From IMG/VR virus record IMGVR_UViG_2711768007_000014: a DNA stretch of 6,669 bases; one strand, given 5' to 3'. This document shows positions 153 to 6,669 of the stretch, one piece after another (the first letter of the stretch is position 1; each line of letters begins with the position of its first letter). Made by a program: the position numbers and the translations under genes. Origin of the DNA: a virus (Duplodnaviria; Heunggongvirae; Uroviricota; Caudoviricetes). The notes under the pieces were generated by a model. It was given only the letters and a program-made list of their open reading frames with translations, had not been told where the DNA came from and did no database searches.

Positions 153-334
153 GGATAGCGGTCATGTGATGCCGGTTTCCCGGTAACTCAGCACCGGTAT
201 CTGAGTCAACGTTTTCTCTACTGGGTCATTTCCGATACGCCCTGCCTGCTGACAGGCTTTCATCACATCTGAAAATATAGCACCCTGACTGATACTGTAG
301 TACCTAAGGTTCCAGAAACTGTGATGTATCCGGC

Positions 335-360
335 ACAGAAAAGCCCCTCCGGAGAGGGCT
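335..360 (-). terminator. Weak terminator-like hairpin (imperfect palindrome AGCCCCTCCGGAGAGGGCT) followed on the minus strand by UUUUCU
   Basis: Imperfect inverted repeat at 342-360 with a short A-run at 339-342 on the plus strand (a U-run on the minus-strand transcript). Only a 5-bp clean stem and 4 U residues, so weak. Confidence 0.3.
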
Positions 361-556
361 GGAGAGTGGCGCTATGTGCCATTGCATGATGCCGGGTGCC
401 TCCCGGTGAATTCAGTACCAGCACCTGAATCCGCGATTATCCCATATACCTACTCGCTGATTGCCCCTCCGCACAGGGGGATTCACCATGCCAGTTTCTT
501 TTAACAAACTCCCCGCAAAACAGACAACTGTCAACCGTCTGAATTGTGAGACATTT

Positions 557-596: not shown

Positions 597-673
597 TGGC
601 GCGTTGTACTGGATTCGAACCAGTGACCGATTGCTTAGAAGGCAATTGCTCTGTCCGGCTGAGCTAACAACGC
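597..673 (-). tRNA. tRNA-Arg, anticodon UCU (reads AGA/AGG); argO-like phage tRNA
   Basis: Minus-strand sequence GCGTTGTTAGCTCAGCCGGACAGAGCAATTGCCTTCTAAGCAATCGGTCACTGGTTCGAATCCAGTACAACGCGCCA folds as a cloverleaf: 7-bp acceptor stem, GCTC/GAGC D-stem, anticodon stem ATTGC/GCAAT, loop CUUCUAA (anticodon UCU), T-arm ACTGG-TTCGAAT-CCAGT, encoded CCA. Confidence 0.85.
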
Positions 674-686
674 ATGATGCAGATAA

Positions 687-763
687 TGGACCGCCATCGG
701 GGACTTGAACCCCGCGCAGCCAGCTTCGAAGGCTGGCGCTCTTTCCTGATGAGCTAATGGCGG
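687..763 (-). tRNA. tRNA-Arg, anticodon read as UCG (reads CGA/CGG); argN-like phage tRNA
   Basis: Minus-strand sequence CCGCCATTAGCTCATCAGGAAAGAGCGCCAGCCTTCGAAGCTGGCTGCGCGGGGTTCAAGTCCCCGATGGCGGTCCA. Acceptor stem CCGCCAT/ATGGCGG, anticodon stem CCAGC/GCTGG, loop CUUCGAA (anticodon UCG), T-arm CGGGG-TTCAAGT-CCCCG, encoded CCA. D-loop is atypical (ATCAGGAAA). Confidence 0.75.
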
Positions 764-770
764 TATGTGA

Positions 771-846
771 TGGTGGCCCTTGCTGGATTTGAACCAGCGA
801 CCTGGCGATTATGAGTCGCTCGCTCTCACCACTGAGCTAAAGGGCC
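771..846 (-). tRNA. tRNA-Ile2 type (anticodon CAU, probably lysidine-modified to read AUA); ileZ/ileX-like
   Basis: Minus-strand sequence GGCCCTTTAGCTCAGTGGTGAGAGCGAGCGACTCATAATCGCCAGGTCGCTGGTTCAAATCCAGCAAGGGCCACCA. Near-identical in architecture to E. coli ileX as I recall it; anticodon loop CUCAUAA; encoded CCA. Could formally be an elongator tRNA-Met. Confidence 0.85.
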
Positions 847-2517: not shown

Positions 2518-3339
2518 TTACCTAGTTACCTTTTTTAACTGCCGCTCAGCCCATGCTTCTTCAATATCAAACCGGGTCACCAGCGCATCATAAAATTTCT
2601 TAACTGTTTTTTCCCATGACGCGCGTGTTATCTGGTTTGTCACCTCGCATATAGCATTAAATGCCTCCGTTGATGGTAGTCTTTCATAGCCACGACCACC
2701 ACAACGCTGGCAGTCTCTGATAACAGGCATACCACGTTTTACCGACTCTTCACGATGAATGGCGACACCACGCCCACGGCAATCCTTACAGGCGGTGGAA
2801 ACCTCACCCTTTCCGCCACACTCCGGACAGGCAACTTTTACCACCTCCCTGACTTTTTTCCATTCTTCCCAGTAAGACGGATACACACCTTTCGTACACT
2901 TTGCCCATACCGGCGGCTTACCATCCGGATACTGGATCTTGTTTGTAAAAACCTCGCTTTCAATAAATTTTTTTCCGTGACAGCAGGGGCACTGTTTTTT
3001 GCTCGCCGCGCTACGGGCATAATCTTCAAACGCATACGAAGCCATAATACGCATCACTGCCGGTTTTATTTCTGCCGGGAGTTTTCTTAACGCCGCCACG
3101 CGATCACACCGACTGAGTGCATATTCTGTCAGCAATTCTGTTGCCCGCTCTCTGTCATTCATACTAATGCCCATTTTCCCAAGGAACGCAGAAACCCCCA
3201 TCTCAGCCCGATTCTGTGTCATGCCCTGCGCGGCCATCACATCAGTGATACTCAGCGCATCTTTCGACGTTGAGGCCGATGCATCAGTCAGGCCGGGGGA
3301 TTTTGGGGAGTAGTATTTCGGTAAATCTTCCAGTTTCAT
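2518..3339 (-). CDS. Q-like late-gene antitermination protein with four CxxCxGxG zinc-finger repeats
   Basis: 273-aa ORF immediately downstream of rusA (ATGA overlap) and immediately upstream of the pR'/tR'-like signals. N-terminus MKLEDLPKYYSPKSP resembles the Qin-prophage Q homologue (QuuQ) as I recall it. Contains CPCCHGKK, CPECGGKG, CKDCRGRG and CQRCGGRG repeats. Confidence 0.7.
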   Translation of the reverse strand: MKLEDLPKYYSPKSPGLTDASASTSKDALSITDVMAAQGMTQNRAEMGVSAFLGKMGISMNDRERATELLTEYALSRCDRVAALRKLPAEIKPAVMRIMASYAFEDYARSAASKKQCPCCHGKKFIESEVFTNKIQYPDGKPPVWAKCTKGVYPSYWEEWKKVREVVKVACPECGGKGEVSTACKDCRGRGVAIHREESVKRGMPVIRDCQRCGGRGYERLPSTEAFNAICEVTNQITRASWEKTVKKFYDALVTRFDIEEAWAERQLKKVTR

Positions 3340-3716
3340 TTTTTGACCTGCCCTTCAAGCATTATGGGATAAATCTTCACCCCCAGACGTCCACCAGATA
3401 CTGGCTGAGCACGAACGATATTGATTTCATCAAACTGCTCATCGTCCATTAGCAACCCCGCATGCGTCAGCGCATCCAGCGGCGCTTTCAGAATATTGTC
3501 CAGGTCACGGCGGCGCTTATCCGGTGGTTCTGCAATAATTTTTATTGCCAACCTTCCGGACAGGCTTAATTTCAGCCGCTGCTGGCGAACAATAAGCGCC
3601 ACTGCCCGGCGATAACGCTCCCCGGCTTTTGATACAAAATATGTGCTGCCACGACGACGCCAGTAAGTGTTCACCGTCGGCGGGTAAGGTAAAACAAATT
3701 CTATGCGCTCGGTCAT
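3336..3716 (-). CDS. rusA: Crossover junction endodeoxyribonuclease RusA (Holliday junction resolvase)
   Basis: 126-aa ORF. Strong recognisable similarity to E. coli RusA along the whole length (LPYPPTVNTYWRRRG..., ...DKRRRDLDNILKAPLDALTHAGLLMDDEQ..., GGRLGVKIYP). Stop overlaps the Q start. Confidence 0.85.
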   Translation of the reverse strand: MTERIEFVLPYPPTVNTYWRRRGSTYFVSKAGERYRRAVALIVRQQRLKLSLSGRLAIKIIAEPPDKRRRDLDNILKAPLDALTHAGLLMDDEQFDEINIVRAQPVSGGRLGVKIYPIMLEGQVKK

Positions 3717-4775
3717 TTATGCTTTCCACTTCAGAACACCCGAATTTCTCGCGTGCATTAAAAAACGAATCAGCAACAACAGCTGACTGCCGTGTTTCTC
3801 TTCAAAATCTTTTACTCCGGCATGTAGTTCGTTACGGCATTTACGGCATAACGGAATAACAAACAAATCATCAGCCTTTGTTCCCATCCCTCCCAGTCCA
3901 TGACCAATGATGTGATGCGGATCATCTGCCTGATTGCCACACGTCATGCATTTCTGCGTTTTTACCCAGCGCGTGTATACAGGCATCTCTTCCCGTTGTG
4001 ATTTCTGGCGCTGGAGATACTGAGCCGGTGACTCCGGATCAACGGCAATGCTGACCACCGTCTTTTCCTGTGGTGGGTTCTGTTGCTGGTGGACGTGAGG
4101 CAGTAACGCAATATTTTTTGTGCGCTGCTTCAGTATGCTGGTGGCTGTCTGCTCTCCCGGTATGATGTCGCTTTCACTGTACACAGAGCGAATTTTTTCC
4201 GCACGCAACCCCAGCGAACGACGTAATACCGCTTCCGGTAGCGCGTCCGCCACCTGATTGCGGACCGCCCACCAGGATAATTCAGCCAGAGATAATTCAC
4301 GCTCCTGCGTACCGCTTATTGCGTGACCGATGACGTCAATCATCCATGCTGACAGGTTTTGATGAGCAAGTTGCTCGAGTGATTCGGATGTCTGGTCACG
4401 CAGCTGGTTGTCGCAGTGCCAGCACAACACCATTGCGCCGGTACCATAACGGTGAATGACGGTTTCGCTGTGATGATAATCGCCGTGTGGCCACTGGCAG
4501 GATTTAATATGGCGCAACAGCCAGTCAGACAATGCACCAGCACCACCAGCAGCACGAATCACCCGTGCGTTACTGAAAAACGGCAGCAATGTTTTGTCTT
4601 CCACCAGCGGCTGGCGAGCGGCAGGAACGACCCCGGACGGCAGATTACGCATGCTTTTTGGTTCCGGCTCCACCAGTATTCTGCCGTTATGGAATGCTGA
4701 CATTGATTCACGGCCTGGCTTAACGATAACCAGACCGAGTTCCGGTACCAGAACAGGTCGAAGTAATACCCGCAC
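3717..4775 (-). CDS. DUF968-type prophage protein (YdfU-like) with C-terminal HNH-like Cys/His motif; putative nuclease
   Basis: 352-aa ORF starting at GTG 4775 (an internal ATG at the MSAFHNGRIL residue is an alternative start). C-terminus has C-x2-C ... HH ... C-x2-C ... H spacing (CMTCGN...DPHHIIGH...CRKCRNELH). Position between the nin small genes and rusA matches ydfU in the Qin prophage. Stop abuts the rusA ATG. Confidence 0.6.
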   Translation of the reverse strand: MRVLLRPVLVPELGLVIVKPGRESMSAFHNGRILVEPEPKSMRNLPSGVVPAARQPLVEDKTLLPFFSNARVIRAAGGAGALSDWLLRHIKSCQWPHGDYHHSETVIHRYGTGAMVLCWHCDNQLRDQTSESLEQLAHQNLSAWMIDVIGHAISGTQERELSLAELSWWAVRNQVADALPEAVLRRSLGLRAEKIRSVYSESDIIPGEQTATSILKQRTKNIALLPHVHQQQNPPQEKTVVSIAVDPESPAQYLQRQKSQREEMPVYTRWVKTQKCMTCGNQADDPHHIIGHGLGGMGTKADDLFVIPLCRKCRNELHAGVKDFEEKHGSQLLLLIRFLMHARNSGVLKWKA

Positions 4776-4776
4776 A

Positions 4777-5132
4777 TTACCTCCAGATCCGTTGCTGGAA
4801 TGTGCGGGACGGACGCGTTGGCCGTTCGGAGTAAGGGAGCCTGACGGAGATTATCCAGTGACGGTAGTCGAGGCTAAGGGCTTTTTTAACCTCGCATCCG
4901 CGCCTGCGGTAACACTGAATGAGCCATTCGGCCTGTTCTTCAGTGCATGGGGGATGCTGGTACCAATCAGATTTAAATGCGTGAGAGCGCCGCCCGTGCC
5001 TGCTGGCAAAGACGGCTGAATTATCAGAATTGTGTAGTCTGGAAGGCAGTGGCTGACAATAGCGCCATTCTCAACGCGCACAGTATAGAGGCCATCTTCA
5101 CTAAAAATTTCACGTAATTCTTCGATTTTCAT
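4777..5132 (-). pseudogene. Hypothetical gene apparently disrupted by a 1-nt frameshift (N-terminal part in one frame, protein-like C-terminal part in the -1 frame with no start codon)
   Basis: ATG at 5130-5132 with a good GGAAGGA ribosome binding site gives MKIEELREIFSEDGLYTVRVENGAIVSHCLPDYTILIIQ..., then decays into low-complexity sequence. The overlapping frame encodes ...HGRRSHAFKSDWYQHPPCTEEQAEWLIQCYRRRGCEVKKALSLDYRHWIISVRLPYSERP..., ending at a TAA (4777-4779) that overlaps the downstream start region. That frame has no ATG/GTG/TTG back to its upstream TGA. Confidence 0.45.
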
Positions 5133-5214
5133 CAACAGAATCCTTCCAGATAAATAGCACTCCCCTGTTCGGGGTCCATCCCTCTTCTCCCTGCGCGCTA
5201 CTTAAGTATTTTTG

Positions 5215-5352: not shown

Positions 5353-5508
5353 TTACTCCTCAGGTTCGTAAGCTGTGAAGACAGCGACCTCCGTCTGGCC
5401 GGTTCGAATTCGTACCTCGCAGAGGTCTTTCCTCGTTACCAGTGCCGTCACTATGACGGTTAAACAGATGACGATCAGGGCGATTAACATCGCCTTTTGC
5501 TGCTTCAT
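5353..5508 (-). CDS. hokD: Hok-family type I toxin (51 aa), HokD/RelF-like
   Basis: Translation MKQQKAMLIALIVICLTVIVTALVTRKDLCEVRIRTGQTEVAVFTAYEPEE matches the Hok family (single transmembrane helix, conserved C...C and TAYE tail) and, from memory, HokD/RelF. An upstream ATG at 5565 with a GAGG ribosome binding site (mok-equivalent) is in frame with hok here, so the ORF track shows a 70-aa extended ORF 5353-5565. Confidence 0.9.
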   Translation of the reverse strand: MKQQKAMLIALIVICLTVIVTALVTRKDLCEVRIRTGQTEVAVFTAYEPEE

Positions 5509-5584
5509 AGCCTGCTTCTCCTTGCCTTTCGGCACGTAAGAGGCTAACCTAGATTTGCCGTTCATAGATTGAGCCTCAGATTAA

Positions 5585-5660
5585 TGTTAAGCGTCTTGCC
5601 GGACGCGTAATGTTAACTGGGGCTTTTCTCTATCTGCCTTTTGGTGTTCATGCCTGAGAC
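5585..5660 (+). ncRNA. Putative Sok-like antisense RNA complementary to the hok mRNA leader (boundaries approximate)
   Basis: Inferred from the hok/sok paradigm. The hok leader here (minus strand, ...GGGTGCTTGAGGCTATCTGTCTCAGGCATGAAC...) resembles the plasmid R1 hok 5' end. I could not confidently map the sok promoter or terminator; a possible promoter is TTGCCG-N19-ATTAAT near 5555-5585. Confidence 0.3.
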
Positions 5661-5683
5661 AGATAGCCTCAAGCACCCGCTGC

Positions 5684-5711
5684 AATTCTACTTAACTCTC
5701 CTTTTCCCGCA
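5684..5711 (-). promoter_or_regulatory. Candidate hok promoter (-35 TTGCGG, 16-bp spacer, -10 TAGAAT); predicted start near 5676
   Basis: Consensus-like hexamers placed so that the transcript would begin at GGGTGCTTGAGGC, which parallels the R1 hok mRNA 5' end (GGCGCUUGAGGC). Transcript to the terminator would be about 420 nt. Confidence 0.4.
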
Positions 5712-5719
5712 AACCGTTT

Positions 5720-5803
5720 TTATCCCCAGCGGCAAATCGAATACACCACCAGCGCCACCGCCATCGCAATTCCTACCGTTGTTAATGCTTCAGGCCAGGT
5801 CAT
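5720..5803 (-). CDS. 27-codon hydrophobic small ORF ([27 protein letters not shown]), start overlapping the stop of the upstream ORF (ATGA)
   Basis: ATG overlaps the TGA of the 114-aa ORF. Hydrophobic core [16 protein letters not shown] is compatible with a membrane-inserted peptide. Its 3' end overlaps the candidate hok promoter. Below the ORF-track size cutoff; could be fortuitous. Confidence 0.3.
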
Positions 5804-6144
5804 CGTAAAATATCCTCCACGCTTATCAGTCCGTTCCGCTCCAGATAACTCATCGCCTTATCCGGTAATTTGCAGTCTGGCTTCGCTTTCCTCAGTTGCC
5901 AGGTTAACTGCTTTACCAGCATGGTTAACTCATCGACCAGACGCTGATATCCCACTGGTTTGTATTCATGCAATTTACCGGCTGGCTCTGCTGCCAGCGA
6001 TACCAGTGCGATTTCCAGAACAGCAATATCCATCTTATATGTGCGGATGATGTCATGGTCGATTGTGCCCGGTATGCACAGTCTCTGTGCTTCAATAGTC
6101 TCCTCTGCGTGAGCTATTAACTGCTCTCTGGTAAAAGTCGTCAT
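5800..6144 (-). CDS. Hypothetical protein (114 aa), paralogous in its N-terminal half to the upstream 55-aa ORF
   Basis: ORF with start overlapping the upstream ORF stop (ATGA). Shares MTT(F/I)T(R/K)E and (E/D)(L/I)A...IAL(V/A)SL(A/E)AEP with the 55-aa ORF. No family recognised. Confidence 0.55.
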
Positions 6145-6308
6145 GCCGTAGCCCCTTCTTGATATTTTTCAAACCAGAACACAACCGGCTCTGCTTCCAG
6201 CGATGCCAGCGCAATCCGTGCCAGTTCCATTTGTTCACCACGGGTAAGCCCGTTTTCAAGCGGGTTTTTAATGAACAATTCAATACGTTCTTTGGTAATA
6301 GTGGTCAT
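6141..6308 (-). CDS. Hypothetical small protein (55 aa; [55 protein letters not shown])
   Basis: Not in the ORF track (below size cutoff); found by manual translation. Perfect Shine-Dalgarno AAGGAG 5 nt upstream of the ATG at 6308; stop overlaps the next ORF start. Paralogous to the first half of the 114-aa ORF. Confidence 0.5.
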
Positions 6309-6318
6309 GTGTTACTCC

Positions 6319-6517
6319 TTAACCCGCAGTGCTTTCAACTGATGAGGGGAACAAAATCTTTTCATCAAACCCTGCATTCATATCATGAACAGCAACACAC
6401 CAATCCATCGACGAACGATTATCAAGAGCCTCCATGATTTCATCCATGCGGCGTAGGTCATACAGGTAAATGCTTTTATCGCCAATGGTGTAAAAGCCAA
6501 TTTTTTTCGGTGATGGA
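6319..6517 (-). CDS. Hypothetical ORF whose reading frame stays open up to the IS junction; possibly the 3' portion of a gene interrupted by the IS
   Basis: The track ORF 6319-6549 begins inside IS-derived sequence. The prophage-derived part encodes ...PSPKKIGFYTIGDKSIYLYDLRRMDEIMEALDNRSSMDWCVAVHDMNAGFDEKILFPSSVESTAG. Internal Met codons could instead be the true start. No family recognised. Confidence 0.35.
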
Positions 6518-6669
6518 TGAGGTGTACTGGCAATAGCGGACACTACCATTTGTTCTTTTTTTAAGCAGCCATCTGATGATATTTTTCCCTGAAGGCTGCC
6601 GGGGAGATATTCCCCAGACGAGAGTGACGACGCTGACGATTGTAGAAAATCTCAATGTATTCCCGTATT
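6518..6669 (-). mobile_element. Second copy of the same IS3-family right end, in inverted orientation; cut by the window edge
   Basis: Exact reverse complement of 1-152. Confidence 0.75.
6561..6668 (-). CDS. IS3-family transposase C-terminal 35 codons (second, inverted copy), truncated by window edge
   Basis: Mirror image of the 2-109 partial CDS; identical translation ...IEIFYNRQRRHSRLGNISPAAFREKYHQMAA. Confidence 0.75.
   Translation of the reverse strand: MREYIEIFYNRQRRHSRLGNISPAAFREKYHQMAA

What the first reader, a model, noticed from the sequence alone, without database searches (positions are those of the whole stretch)
5720..6517. Uncharacterised, translationally coupled small-ORF cluster (tandem paralogs plus a hydrophobic 27-codon ORF) directly upstream of hok/sok
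Three or four minus-strand ORFs are chained by overlapping or abutting stop/start codons (stop-AAGGAG-ATG at 6308, ATGA at 6141-6144, ATGA at 5800-5803). The 55-aa and 114-aa products are clearly paralogous (shared MTT.T.E start and IAL.SL.AEP block), suggesting a duplicated module. The last ORF is a hydrophobic peptide overlapping the hok promoter. I recognise none as RelB/RelE (which flank hokD in E. coli K-12 Qin) or any other named nin-region protein. The slot is one where lambdoid prophages commonly carry accessory genes, so this is a candidate novel toxin-antitoxin, superinfection-exclusion or defence module. That function is hypothesis only.
Basis: partly seen in the sequence, partly recalled or inferred. 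Interest (0 to 1): 0.7.

Follow-up and report, generated by a model that had tools for sequence, protein, structure and literature searches.

The report
Mosaic prophage accessory genes plus micropeptide
This stretch is an ordinary, heavily shuffled set of lambdoid-prophage early accessory genes of unknown function, not a toxin-antitoxin or defence unit tied to hok. Its last member, however, is a conserved and almost never annotated 27-residue membrane-peptide gene found in about 30% of complete E. coli genomes.

Summary
The ORF chain is real. On the minus strand it runs 76-aa ORF, then 55 aa (6141-6308), 114 aa (5800-6144) and 27 aa (5720-5803), joined by TAAGGAG-N6-ATG and two ATGA overlaps. 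The 55- and 114-aa products share an N-terminal module. The TA/defence reading is not supported. There are no Pfam, NCBIfam or PADLOC hits, only PHROGs of unknown function. The genes are mosaic members of the lambdoid EaA/YfdT/DUF551 accessory pool and occur in many arrangements, with or without hok, in both the nin-side and exo-xis regions. The 55-aa ORF is a chimera of an Eaa N-module and the last 14 codons of an HNH endonuclease gene. The 76-aa ORF is an 87-aa family gene decapitated by IS600. hok/sok has its own inferred promoter, starting 7-8 nt after the 27-codon ORF's stop. The notable part is that 27-codon ORF (MxWPEAF..VG..AVA..YSICRWG). It keeps its length in 122 of 130 seeded instances and its variation peaks at third codon positions (pN/pS 0.44). 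A Shine-Dalgarno motif and a stop/start overlap link it to several unrelated upstream genes. It occurs in 1,634 of 5,426 E. coli genomes and in Stx phages, essentially unannotated. Its function is unknown; it is most likely a single-pass membrane peptide closing early accessory operons.

The parts
6518..6669 (-). End of an IS600 (IS3-family) copy: the 3' end of the transposase orfB plus the terminal repeat. On the coding strand it lies upstream of the cluster and cuts it off from the rest of the prophage early operon.
   Evidence: 100% identity to sequence annotated 'IS3-like element IS600 family transposase'; homology to other prophages ends at 6517; the frame reads ...IEIFYNRQRRHSRLGNISPAAFREKYHQMAA*.
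6319..6517 (-). The 3' 65 codons plus stop of an 87-aa phage gene (phrog_1714; WP_000224227-type). Its N-terminal 22 codons were replaced by IS600 sequence, giving the chimeric 76-aa ORF at 6319-6549.
6141..6308 (-). 55-aa ORF (WP_000207997-type), a chimera. Codons 1-41 are the EaA/YfdT-type N-terminal helical module. Codons 42-55 ([14 protein letters not shown]) equal the C-terminus of an HNH endonuclease gene.
   Evidence: ArgO145 homology runs from 5719 to 6185. ArgO145 gp11 ends ...[15 protein letters not shown]; the same N-module heads 59- to 199-aa proteins named Eaa, DUF551 or DUF550.
5800..6144 (-). 114-aa ORF (WP_000206826-type; phrog_660). It has an N-terminal helical-hairpin module (aa 1-55), a disordered linker, and a C-terminal 'Z' module (aa ~66-114, ELTMLVKQL...[11 protein letters not shown]). 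The Z module also ends many 160-200-aa prophage proteins.
   Evidence: pLDDT ~90 for aa 11-50. No structural or sequence relative in PDB or BFVD.
5984..6012 (-). One copy of the 29-nt direct repeat (the other is at 6187-6215) encoding IAL(V/A)SL(A/E)AEP. It is a recombination hotspot between the tandem paralogs.
   Evidence: 86% identity, spacing 203. The natural 101-aa fusion P0031 equals the 55-aa N-part joined to the 114-aa C-part.
6187..6215 (-). Second copy of the 29-nt direct repeat, inside the 55-aa ORF.
5720..5803 (-). 27-codon [30 protein letters not shown]. It is a conserved small hydrophobic (single-TM-type) peptide gene, coupled to the upstream gene by an ATGA overlap and preceded by GGAGGA inside the upstream gene's last codons.
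5685..5712 (-). Inferred hok promoter: -35 TTGCGG at 5712-5707, 16-nt spacer, -10 TAGAAT at 5690-5685. This is the first element of the independent hok/sok module.
   Evidence: Read. The Rfam sok/hok-leader model starts at 5678. Homology with hok-less loci ends right after the 27-codon ORF's stop. Not flagged by the consensus scan, so this is an inference.
5353..5678 (-). hok/sok type I toxin-antitoxin locus: hok mRNA leader and sok region at 5503-5678, mok at 5353-5565, hokD at 5353-5508. It is a neighbour, not part of the cluster.
   Evidence: PF01848, E=3e-23; RF01794, 112 bits; annotated hokD.

Best explanation
Region 5720-6517 is the distal end of a lambdoid-prophage early accessory-gene array. 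It draws on the same gene pool as the exo-xis ('ea') region, whose members are annotated EaA/Eaa, DUF551 or DUF550 and include K-12 CPS-53 YfdT. Here the array sits between the replication genes and hok/nin-Q in a Qin/Rac-like prophage, probably of Shigella sonnei.

The genes are read as one operon from an upstream early promoter, with ribosomes passed from gene to gene (a stop-embedded SD and two ATGA overlaps). The proteins are modular. A ~40-55-residue N-terminal helical hairpin ends in the motif ALASLEAEP, and interchangeable C-terminal parts follow it. Homologous recombination within the conserved N-module DNA and at gene boundaries keeps reshuffling them. The 55-aa ORF is one such recombinant: an Eaa N-module fused to the last 14 codons of an HNH endonuclease gene. 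The 114-aa gene pairs an N-module with a widespread C-terminal 'Z' module.

The array is closed by a conserved 27-codon gene. Its product is most likely a single-pass inner-membrane peptide, with WPEAF at the N-terminus, a hydrophobic core of about 19 residues and a C-terminal RWG. By the positive-inside rule it would sit N-out/C-in. It is made in step with whichever accessory gene precedes it.

hok/sok is an adjacent, self-contained module with its own promoter. In this window IS600 has decapitated the array, so native expression is probably lost or altered.

Shown: the anatomy, the mosaicism, the coding constraint on the 27-codon ORF, and independence from hok. Inferred: co-transcription, membrane insertion, and a host-modulating rather than TA/defence role. 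The last is by analogy with YfdT (one of the alternative components needed for multicopy inhibition of replication initiation) and with Ea22 and other exo-xis proteins that affect lysis-lysogeny.
For: **Family placement**
- PHROG hits, all of unknown function: 55 aa to phrog_3323 (1.3e-19) and phrog_60; 114 aa to phrog_660 (8e-43); 76 aa to phrog_1714 (5e-37).
- The N-module matches K-12 YfdT (BLASTP 8e-6 and 1e-3).
- The identical N-module heads proteins named Eaa, DUF551 and DUF550.

**Mosaicism**
- The Z module ends 160-200-aa proteins with other N-terminal and middle parts.
- The tail of the 55-aa ORF equals the HNH gp11 C-terminus.
- A natural 55::114 fusion, P0031, exists, and the 29-nt repeat lies at the junction.

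**Variable neighbourhood**
- Intact relatives place the genes downstream of replication genes and ead/Ea22-like genes (L001, L002, 689R5).
- Other phages place them next to xis/int (PhiR49_2, ArgO145).
- The gene upstream of the 114-aa gene is the 55-aa ORF in 54 of 76 loci, HNH in 19 and a 61-aa variant in 3.
- hok follows in 45 of 76 of those loci and in 56 of 126 ORF-seeded instances.

**The 27-codon ORF**
- 122 of 130 instances seeded only by the first 20 nt are exactly 27 codons, with 48 distinct DNA sequences.
- Column entropy at codon positions 1/2/3 is 0.50/0.28/0.80. pN/pS is 0.44, against 0.71 and 1.83 in the other two frames.
- The stop stays in place while switching among TAA and TGA.
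- It overlaps the upstream stop in 122 of 130 instances and has GGAG/GAGG upstream in 127 of 130.
- It follows at least four unrelated upstream C-termini and occurs in the virulent phage Av-05.
- Mosaic breakpoints coincide with its start and its stop.
- Mean Kyte-Doolittle hydropathy is 2.16 over 19 residues.
- It is present in 1,634 of 5,426 E. coli genomes.

**Independence of hok/sok**
- The Rfam sok model spans 5503-5678, and there is no terminator between the cluster and hok.

**Literature context**
- Either yfdT or yfdS is needed, together with yfdQR, for multicopy inhibition of replication initiation (PMC4776307).
- Ea22 proteins are mosaic, with shared N-terminal parts and portable C-terminal domains including DUF551 (PMC10834534).
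Against: - No function is demonstrated for any of the four products. The analogy to YfdT and Ea22 rests only on a shared N-module or on shared genomic habitat.
- Pfam Ead_Ea22 and DUF551 do not hit the window's proteins.
- Translation of the 27- and 55-codon ORFs is not shown. I found no mention in two EHEC Ribo-seq papers' supplements.
- About 9% of the copies following near-identical 114-aa genes carry a frameshift or nonsense change in the 27-codon ORF, so it is dispensable for prophage carriage.
- The pN/pS and entropy figures come from related sequences, so the same events are counted repeatedly.
- hok lies directly downstream in 44-59% of instances. That is high, and a functional link cannot be excluded.
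Confidence: 0.7

Rival explanations
1. The cluster is a dedicated toxin-antitoxin, abortive-infection or superinfection-exclusion system. The hydrophobic 27-aa peptide would be the toxin or effector, and the soluble paralogs its antidote or sensor.
For: The genes sit in a slot where prophages carry accessory genes. Coupling is tight. The peptide is small, hydrophobic and comparable in size to type I toxins. It is conserved and often lies next to another membrane toxin, hok.
Against: PADLOC, Pfam and NCBIfam find nothing. The partners are not fixed: the peptide follows DUF551, Z-module, L0139-type and other genes, and the 114-aa gene follows the 55-aa ORF, HNH or the 87-aa gene. No antisense promoter or separate promoter was found for the peptide. 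The 55-aa ORF is a recombination chimera. The peptide is disrupted in about 9% of otherwise near-identical loci without loss of the neighbours.
Confidence: 0.08
2. The 84 nt at 5720-5803 belong functionally to hok/sok, as an upstream leader, promoter-proximal element or co-toxin that travels with hok. They would not belong to the accessory array.
For: hok lies within 900 nt downstream in 56 of 126 ORF-seeded instances and in 45 of 76 instances seeded by the 114-aa gene. In 933W the 84 nt travel with hokW while the upstream gene differs. The stop codon lies only 7-8 nt from the inferred -35.
Against: More than 40% of instances lack hok, including ArgO145, PhiR49_2, BP-4795, VT1-Sakai and Av-05. 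In those loci homology ends immediately after the ORF's stop codon. The Rfam hok-leader/sok model begins at 5678, downstream of the ORF. The substitution pattern is that of a protein-coding frame, not an RNA or DNA element.
Confidence: 0.1
3. In this window the cluster is a decaying remnant. The 55-aa chimera, and possibly the whole IS600-decapitated array, no longer does anything, and the small ORFs persist only because the insertion and recombination events are recent.
For: IS600 removed the upstream part of the operon and the first 22 codons of the 87-aa gene. The 55-aa ORF is an N-module fused to 14 foreign codons. Frameshift fusions of 55+114 exist (P0001). Many N-module-only short ORFs of differing length exist. 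Relatives are more than 98% identical, so selection on the 55-aa ORF cannot be measured.
Against: The 55-aa form is found unchanged upstream of the 114-aa gene in 54 of 76 viral-contig loci, and the 27+114+55 block is in 409 complete E. coli genomes. The 114-aa and 27-codon ORFs are intact here and show conservation across divergent copies. An IS end can supply an outward promoter; this was not tested.
Confidence: 0.3
4. The 27-codon ORF is a chance open frame and not a gene.
For: It is not called by PGAP in RefSeq genomes. It has no Pfam or NCBIfam family and only weak PHROG similarity. It is very short.
Against: Length and frame are kept in 122 of 130 seeded instances across 48 distinct sequences, with third-position-biased variation. 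Full-length tblastn matches at 55-96% identity occur in 92 phage records. A conserved SD and stop/start overlap are present. Chance matches to the same 5' pattern in other bacteria give no such ORF. The antisense ORF at 5641-5808 would place the most variable positions at its second codon position (derived).
Confidence: 0.04

Closest known systems
E. coli K-12 cryptic prophage CPS-53 protein YfdT (with YfdS, DUF551)
   Same: YfdT starts MTTFTNKELI...EIALVSLEVEP, the same N-terminal module as the 114- and 55-aa products (BLASTP 8e-6 and 1e-3). It lies at the end of an accessory array just before the excisionase-type gene torI, and it ends ...QQEVK* with the same GAGGTGAAAT junction seen before the 27-codon ORF in BP-4795. 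Either yfdT or yfdS, together with yfdQR, gives multicopy inhibition of replication initiation (PMC4776307).
   Different: Similarity is confined to the ~42-54-residue N-module and the C-terminal parts are unrelated. K-12 has no 27-codon ORF after yfdT. No activity of YfdT alone is known.
Lambda and Stx-phage exo-xis region proteins, especially Ea22 (Ead_Ea22, IPR025153) and its DUF551-bearing variants
   Same: The genomic habitat is the same: the 114+27 pair lies between ead/Ea22-like genes and xis/int in ArgO145 and PhiR49_2, and the 27-codon ORF follows L0140 (Ea22-like) and L0139 in 933W. The architecture principle is also the same: shared N-terminal parts with portable, swapped C-terminal domains (PMC10834534).
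   Different: Pfam Ead_Ea22 and DUF551 do not hit the window's proteins. No significant sequence or fold similarity to the Ea22 CTD was found. The pro-lysogenic phenotype of Ea22 cannot be transferred.
Salmonella/E. coli 'Eaa protein' (P22 eaA-type) and DUF550/DUF551 prophage proteins
   Same: Residues 1-41 of the 55-aa ORF are nearly identical to the N-terminus of 197-199-aa proteins named Eaa (P0076, P0090) and of fragments named DUF551 or DUF550.
   Different: The 55-aa ORF lacks the whole body of those proteins and instead carries 14 residues from an HNH endonuclease C-terminus.
Hok/Sok type I toxin-antitoxin (hokD / hokW-sokW)
   Same: It is the immediate downstream neighbour in this window and in 44-59% of related loci. 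Both Hok and the 27-aa product are small hydrophobic peptides.
   Different: The cluster has no Hok/Gef domain, no sok-like RNA and no fold-back mRNA signature. hok/sok starts after the cluster (Rfam match at 5503-5678). The cluster occurs without hok and hok without the cluster.
Bacterial small membrane proteins and type I toxins of similar size (e.g. KdpF, AcrZ, MgtS; TisB, DinQ, ShoB). This comparison is from my own knowledge.
   Same: Similar in having about 27 residues, one hydrophobic helix, small-residue motifs (G11, A13/A15/A17) and a basic residue at the C-terminal end. The only library similarities are weak TM-helix-level hits: DUF883_C glycine zipper at E=0.029 and KdpF at E=0.12.
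   Different: There is no significant sequence similarity. Unlike type I toxins it has no own promoter or antisense RNA and is translationally coupled to an upstream gene. Unlike KdpF or AcrZ, no cognate membrane complex is encoded nearby.

Membership tests
PHROG families 660 / 3323 / 60 / 1714 (phage proteins of unknown function) | Significant profile match over most of the protein | tested here: met
   114 aa to phrog_660 at 8.2e-43; 55 aa to phrog_3323 at 1.3e-19 and phrog_60 at 4.3e-18; 76 aa to phrog_1714 at 5.3e-37.
YfdT/EaA-type N-terminal module | N-terminus M-T-T-x-T-[KR]-E ... helical hairpin ... [IV]AL[AV]SL[EA]AEP | tested here: met
   BLASTP 1e-5, 8e-6, 1e-3; alignment; helices 6-26 and 30-52, pLDDT ~90.
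Ead/Ea22-like (PF13935) and DUF551 (PF04448) | Pfam profile match at or above the gathering score | tested here: not met
   no Pfam family at E<=1 for the 55-, 114- or 76-aa products. DUF551 is present only in relatives that share the N-module (P0066, P0098).
Hok/Sok type I TA | Hok/Gef toxin domain plus the sok antisense RNA / hok leader structure within the element | tested here: not met
   PF01848 hits only the ORF at 5353-5565. RF01794 covers only 5503-5678. Nothing was found in 5720-6517.
Type II TA (RelBE and others) / known defence systems | Match to a toxin, antitoxin or defence-protein profile; a conserved two-gene unit | tested here: not met
   PADLOC, Pfam and NCBIfam give no hits. 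Gene partners vary between loci.
Type I toxin (for the 27-aa peptide) | Own promoter and a cis- or trans-encoded antisense RNA controlling translation | tested here: inconclusive
   The consensus scan finds no promoter on either strand within 5700-5810. The ORF is coupled to the upstream gene in 122 of 130 instances. RNA evidence cannot be obtained here.
Bona fide small protein-coding gene (for the 27-codon ORF) | Frame and length conserved across divergent copies, with excess synonymous or third-position change | tested here: met
   122 of 130 instances have 27 codons; entropy 0.50/0.28/0.80; pN/pS 0.44 against 0.71 and 1.83 out of frame; 92 phage records with full-length matches.
Bona fide small protein-coding gene (for the 27-codon ORF) | Ribosome-binding site and start context | tested here: met
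   GGAG/GAGG within -18..-4 in 127 of 130 instances. ATGA or TGATG overlap in 122 of 130.
Bona fide small protein-coding gene (for the 27-codon ORF) | Direct evidence of translation or of the peptide | not testable with these tools
   No occurrence of the peptide in the full-text library or in supplements of two EHEC translatome papers.
Single-pass membrane peptide | Hydrophobic segment long enough to span a bilayer | tested here: met
   mean Kyte-Doolittle 2.16 over 19 residues ([19 protein letters not shown]). The only charges are E5 and R25. Membrane insertion itself was not tested.

The most novel reading that the evidence does not exclude
The 27-residue WPEAF...RWG peptide would be an overlooked, functional phage membrane effector. 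It could be a modulator of a host inner-membrane protein, an exclusion factor, or a mild membrane toxin acting early after infection or induction. It would be produced in stoichiometric coupling with the last EaA/DUF551-type gene. Such a peptide is carried by Stx-converting phages, a virulent Vequintavirinae phage and about 30% of complete E. coli genomes while being absent from standard annotation.
Probability: 0.3. Interest if true: 0.6.

Novelty: new member of a known kind. Interest (0 to 1): 0.3.

Why it matters
The cluster as a whole matters little. It is one more permutation of the shuffled early accessory genes of lambdoid prophages. It illustrates how recombination at a shared N-terminal module creates and deletes small genes.

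What is worth keeping is the 27-codon ORF.
- It is a widespread conserved small gene that RefSeq annotation skips. It has up to 7 copies per genome and is present in 933W, VT1/VT2-Sakai, BP-4795 and ArgO145.
- It sits in the exo-xis / early accessory regions that are already implicated in Stx-prophage induction.
- Adding it to annotation, and to deletion or overexpression constructs of the exo-xis region, could change how published phenotypes of that region are assigned.

Tried and rejected
1. Pfam, NCBIfam and PADLOC scans of all four products found nothing beyond noise-level TM-helix hits.
2. A PDB sequence search with profiles of the 114-aa and 87-aa families returned only designed coiled coils or E~1 hits.
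3. The AF2 model of the 114-aa protein was searched with Foldseek against PDB and BFVD. It returned only generic helical hairpins, with the best E-value 0.09 (BFVD) and no hit at E<=0.001. The afdb50 library was unavailable.
I replaced it with tblastn, pattern scans and an exact-sequence look-up. The 90% clusters that join the peptide to 'DUF551' proteins are artefacts of partial, wrong-frame fragments and not real fusions.
6. Full-text and supplement searches for the peptide sequence found no occurrences. One preprint was not held.
7. A degenerate pattern scan of species-representative genomes found true copies only in Escherichia and Shigella. Two tiny contigs under other names are probable contaminants, and the remaining 21 hits are chance matches without the ORF.
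8. I considered an antisense-strand gene at 5641-5808. I rejected it because the variation pattern would fall on its second codon position.
9. I considered the 55- and 114-aa genes as a simple local tandem duplication. I rejected this in favour of independent mosaic assembly, because each N-module has closer relatives elsewhere.
Full report
**1. What is in the sequence**

On the minus strand the window carries a Qin/Rac-like lambdoid prophage segment. In order it holds:
- a DNA methyltransferase (887-1945);
- a Q-type antiterminator (2518-3339);
- RusA (3336-3716);
- a DUF968/YdfU protein (3717-4775);
- mok/hokD (5353-5565).

Upstream of hok lie the ORFs of the finding: 27 aa (5720-5803), 114 aa (5800-6144), 55 aa (6141-6308) and a 76-aa ORF (6319-6549). 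TAA at 6321-6319 is embedded in AAGGAG, and the ATG at 6308 follows 6 nt later. ATGA overlaps lie at 6144-6141 and 5803-5800.

The 55- and 114-aa products align over their N-terminal parts (BLASTP E=1e-5) and share several PHROG families. A 29-nt direct repeat, 86% identical, encodes the shared IAL.SL.AEP block in both genes (5984-6012 and 6187-6215).

**2. Two corrections to the observation**

First, homology of the window to other E. coli prophages stops at 6517. Positions 6518-6669 are 100% identical to the end of IS600. The native gene at this position encodes an 87-aa protein, MATLTKKERAWLNELQDVLDRCPSPKK... (L001). In the window its first 22 codons are replaced by IS sequence, giving the chimeric 76-aa ORF. 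This exact chimera (P0180) is on 832 contigs named Shigella sonnei, so the window is probably from Shigella. The IS lies upstream on the coding strand and separates the cluster from the rest of the early operon.

Second, the 27-codon ORF does not overlap the hok promoter. The Rfam sok/hok-leader model matches 5503-5678 end to end (112 bits). Reading the sequence, a -10 TAGAAT lies at 5690-5685 and a -35 TTGCGG at 5712-5707. The ORF's stop is at 5722-5720. The promoter assignment is my inference; the simple consensus scan did not list it.

**3. What the 55-, 114- and 87-aa genes are**

None has a Pfam, NCBIfam or PADLOC match. All fall into PHROG families of unknown function: phrog_660 at 8e-43 for the 114-aa protein, phrog_3323 and phrog_60 for the 55-aa protein, and phrog_1714 for the 87-aa family. 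RefSeq calls them hypothetical proteins (WP_000206826, WP_000207997, WP_000224227).

Searching 5.8 billion proteins shows that the 114-aa protein is built from two separable modules.
- The N-terminal module runs MTTFTREQ...[11 protein letters not shown].
- The C-terminal 'Z' module runs [43 protein letters not shown]. It also terminates many 160-200-aa enterobacterial prophage proteins whose N-terminal and middle parts differ, some of them with DUF551.

The N-module of the 55-aa ORF is nearly identical to the first 41 residues of 197-199-aa proteins named 'Eaa protein' (P0076, P0090). It also matches many fragments named DUF551 or DUF550, and it is fused to at least five different tails.

E. 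coli K-12 YfdT (CPS-53) begins with the same module (MTTFTNKELI...EIALVSLEVEP; BLASTP 8e-6 to the 114-aa protein and 1e-3 to the 55-aa protein).

AlphaFold2 predicts the following for the 114-aa protein (mean pLDDT 74):
- a helical hairpin at residues 6-52, with pLDDT about 90;
- a disordered linker at 53-64;
- three shorter helices.

**4. The 55-aa ORF is a recombination chimera**

In phage ArgO145 and several Stx2a phages, a 99.6% identical block covers window 5719-6185. That block holds the 27-codon ORF, the 114-aa gene and the last 14 codons of the 55-aa ORF. There, those 14 codons are the C-terminus of a 121-aa HNH endonuclease (gp11 ends ...[17 protein letters not shown]).

The 55-aa ORF is therefore an Eaa N-module (codons 1-41) joined to an HNH tail (codons 42-55). 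The junction is exactly the ...AEP motif where other mosaic joints fall. Natural derivatives show continuing exchange:
- P0031 (101 aa) is the N-part of the 55-aa ORF fused at the repeat to the C-part of the 114-aa gene.
- P0001 (167 aa) is a frameshift fusion.

**5. The cluster is not a fixed unit and is not tied to hok**

Intact relatives place these genes after the replication genes and ead/Ea22-like genes and before hokD (L001, L002, phage 689R5). In PhiR49_2 and ArgO145, however, the 114+27 pair lies in the leftward early region near xis/int, with no hok. There, homology with the window ends immediately after the stop codon of the 27-codon ORF.

In 933W the 27-codon ORF and hokW/sokW are present but follow a different gene (L0139), downstream of the Ea22-like L0140 and the TraR-like L0141.

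I examined 79 viral-contig loci found through the 114-aa gene.
- The upstream neighbour, scorable in 76 loci, is the 55-aa ORF in 54, the HNH gene in 19 and a 61-aa variant in 3.
- hok follows in 45 of 76.

The block 27+114+55 is present at 80% coverage or more in 409 of 5,426 complete E. coli genomes.

This is the behaviour of interchangeable accessory genes in a mosaic array, not of a co-adapted toxin/antidote or sensor/effector set.

**6. The 27-codon ORF is a real, conserved and overlooked gene**

*Phage records.* tblastn of the peptide finds full-length matches at 55-96% identity in 92 phage records. These include 933W, VT1- and VT2-Sakai, BP-4795, ArgO145 and the virulent Vequintavirinae phage Av-05. 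In the records I opened, the 84 nt lie in an unannotated gap directly after a DUF551, EaA or other gene.

*Frame and length.* Seeding only on the first 20 nt (ATGANNTGGCCTGAAGCATT) gave 130 instances, and 122 are exactly 27 codons, with 48 distinct DNA sequences. Variation is highest at third codon positions (entropy 0.50/0.28/0.80). pN/pS is 0.44 in frame, against 0.71 and 1.83 in the other two frames. The stop stays in place while alternating between TAA and TGA.

*Start context.* The upstream gene's stop overlaps the ATG in 122 of 130 instances (ATGA in 101, TGATG in 21). A GGAG/GAGG motif lies upstream in 127 of 130, encoded within the last codons of otherwise unrelated upstream proteins (...PEPPQEVNQ*...SVEDILR*...NIEQEVNR*...WRLEVR*).

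*Controls.* Chance matches to a degenerate version of the 5' pattern in other bacteria do not continue into such an ORF. True copies in species-representative genomes are confined to Escherichia and Shigella.

*Prevalence and annotation.* The 84 nt occur in 1,634 of 5,426 complete E. coli genomes, with up to 7 copies. The exact peptide has occasionally been deposited as 'prophage protein' or 'hypothetical protein', but no family or function exists.

*Sequence features.* The consensus is M-x-W-P-E-A-F-x-x-V-G-x-x-x-A-V-A-x-x-x-Y-S-I-C-R-W-G. The hydrophobic core spans about 19 residues (mean Kyte-Doolittle 2.16). E5 and R25 are the only charges, which by the positive-inside rule suggests N-out/C-in.

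*Caveats.*
- The sequences are related, so the counts are not independent.
- 7 of 79 copies following near-identical 114-aa genes are frameshifted, truncated or extended. POCJ13 has W3 changed to a stop.
- No translation data were found.

**7. How it most likely works**

*Shown:* a chain of genes with stop/start coupling and no internal promoter or terminator signal; modular proteins; a conserved terminal membrane-peptide gene; and an adjacent but self-contained hok/sok locus.

*Inferred:*
- The genes are early-operon passengers, transcribed from pR-side or pL-side promoters depending on the phage.
- The N-module is a common structural or oligomerisation handle, and at the DNA level a recombination hotspot.
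- The variable C-terminal parts act on host targets.
- The peptide is inserted in the inner membrane.

The nearest experimental anchors are weak. Either yfdT or yfdS, together with yfdQR, inhibits replication initiation when in multicopy (PMC4776307). Ea22 and other exo-xis proteins bias the lysis-lysogeny decision and are likewise mosaic (PMC10834534).

I put about 0.7 on the statement 'mosaic early accessory array plus a genuine terminal micropeptide, independent of hok, not a TA/defence system'. I put about 0.08 on a TA/defence system and about 0.1 on a functional link of the 84 nt to hok. I put about 0.3 on the view that the IS-decapitated copy in this window is functionally dead. That last view is compatible with the main reading.

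**8. Novelty and score**

The larger genes are members of known families of unknown function, and the mosaic principle is well known for lambdoid phages. The 27-codon ORF is a new, unnamed member of the known class of small phage and bacterial membrane proteins. Its breadth and its location in the Stx-phage exo-xis region make it worth annotating and testing.

My overall interest score is 0.3. If the peptide proves to be a functional membrane effector (probability about 0.3), the interest would be about 0.6.

Noticed in passing
window 6518-6669: This is the end of an IS600 copy, inserted into the 87-aa gene. The resulting chimeric 76-aa ORF is identical to a protein seen on 832 contigs named Shigella sonnei, so the window is probably from Shigella and the insertion is fixed in that lineage.
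   Followed up: partly
   Followed up: partly
window 331-520 and 600-846 (minus strand): Rfam finds the sRNA family STnc100 (123.6 bits) and three tRNA genes downstream of the methyltransferase gene. This is typical cargo of the late-regulatory region of such prophages.
   Followed up: no
L011 (Shigella phage POCJ13) 1501-1584; L004 (phage 689R5) about 4150-4240; three IMG/VR loci among L160-L239: Some copies of the 27-codon ORF are disrupted. POCJ13 has TGG changed to TAG at codon 3. Phage 689R5 and three viral contigs share a 1-nt deletion in codons 2-3, which makes annotators call a 36-aa out-of-frame ORF instead.
   Followed up: partly
L139 (431-bp contig named Xanthomonas pisi) and L149 (369-bp contig named Acinetobacter idrijaensis): These tiny contigs carry 27-codon ORFs identical to E. 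coli phage variants. They are most likely contamination of those assemblies rather than real occurrences outside the Enterobacteriaceae.
   Followed up: no
L132 (E. coli K-12 MG1655 2475873-2476240): yfdT ends with the same GAGGTGAAAT junction that precedes the 27-codon ORF in BP-4795. In K-12, however, the sequence diverges there (ypdJ region) and the small ORF is absent, which suggests loss or replacement in CPS-53.
   Followed up: partly
window 4851-5135 (minus strand) versus L001 4971-5809: The genes between hok and the DUF968 gene differ between the window and its closest relatives. The window has a 94-aa ORF. L001 has an HTH protein plus an ImmA/IrrE metallopeptidase pair. This is another mosaic replacement and was not examined.
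   Followed up: no
L003 (ArgO145) 2866-3377 and about 3440-3500: In ArgO145 the 114+27 pair converges on an annotated toxin-antitoxin pair (gp08/gp09). The two are separated by a hairpin followed by a T-run that starts just after the 27-codon ORF's stop, so there the small ORF is the last gene of the leftward operon.
   Followed up: no
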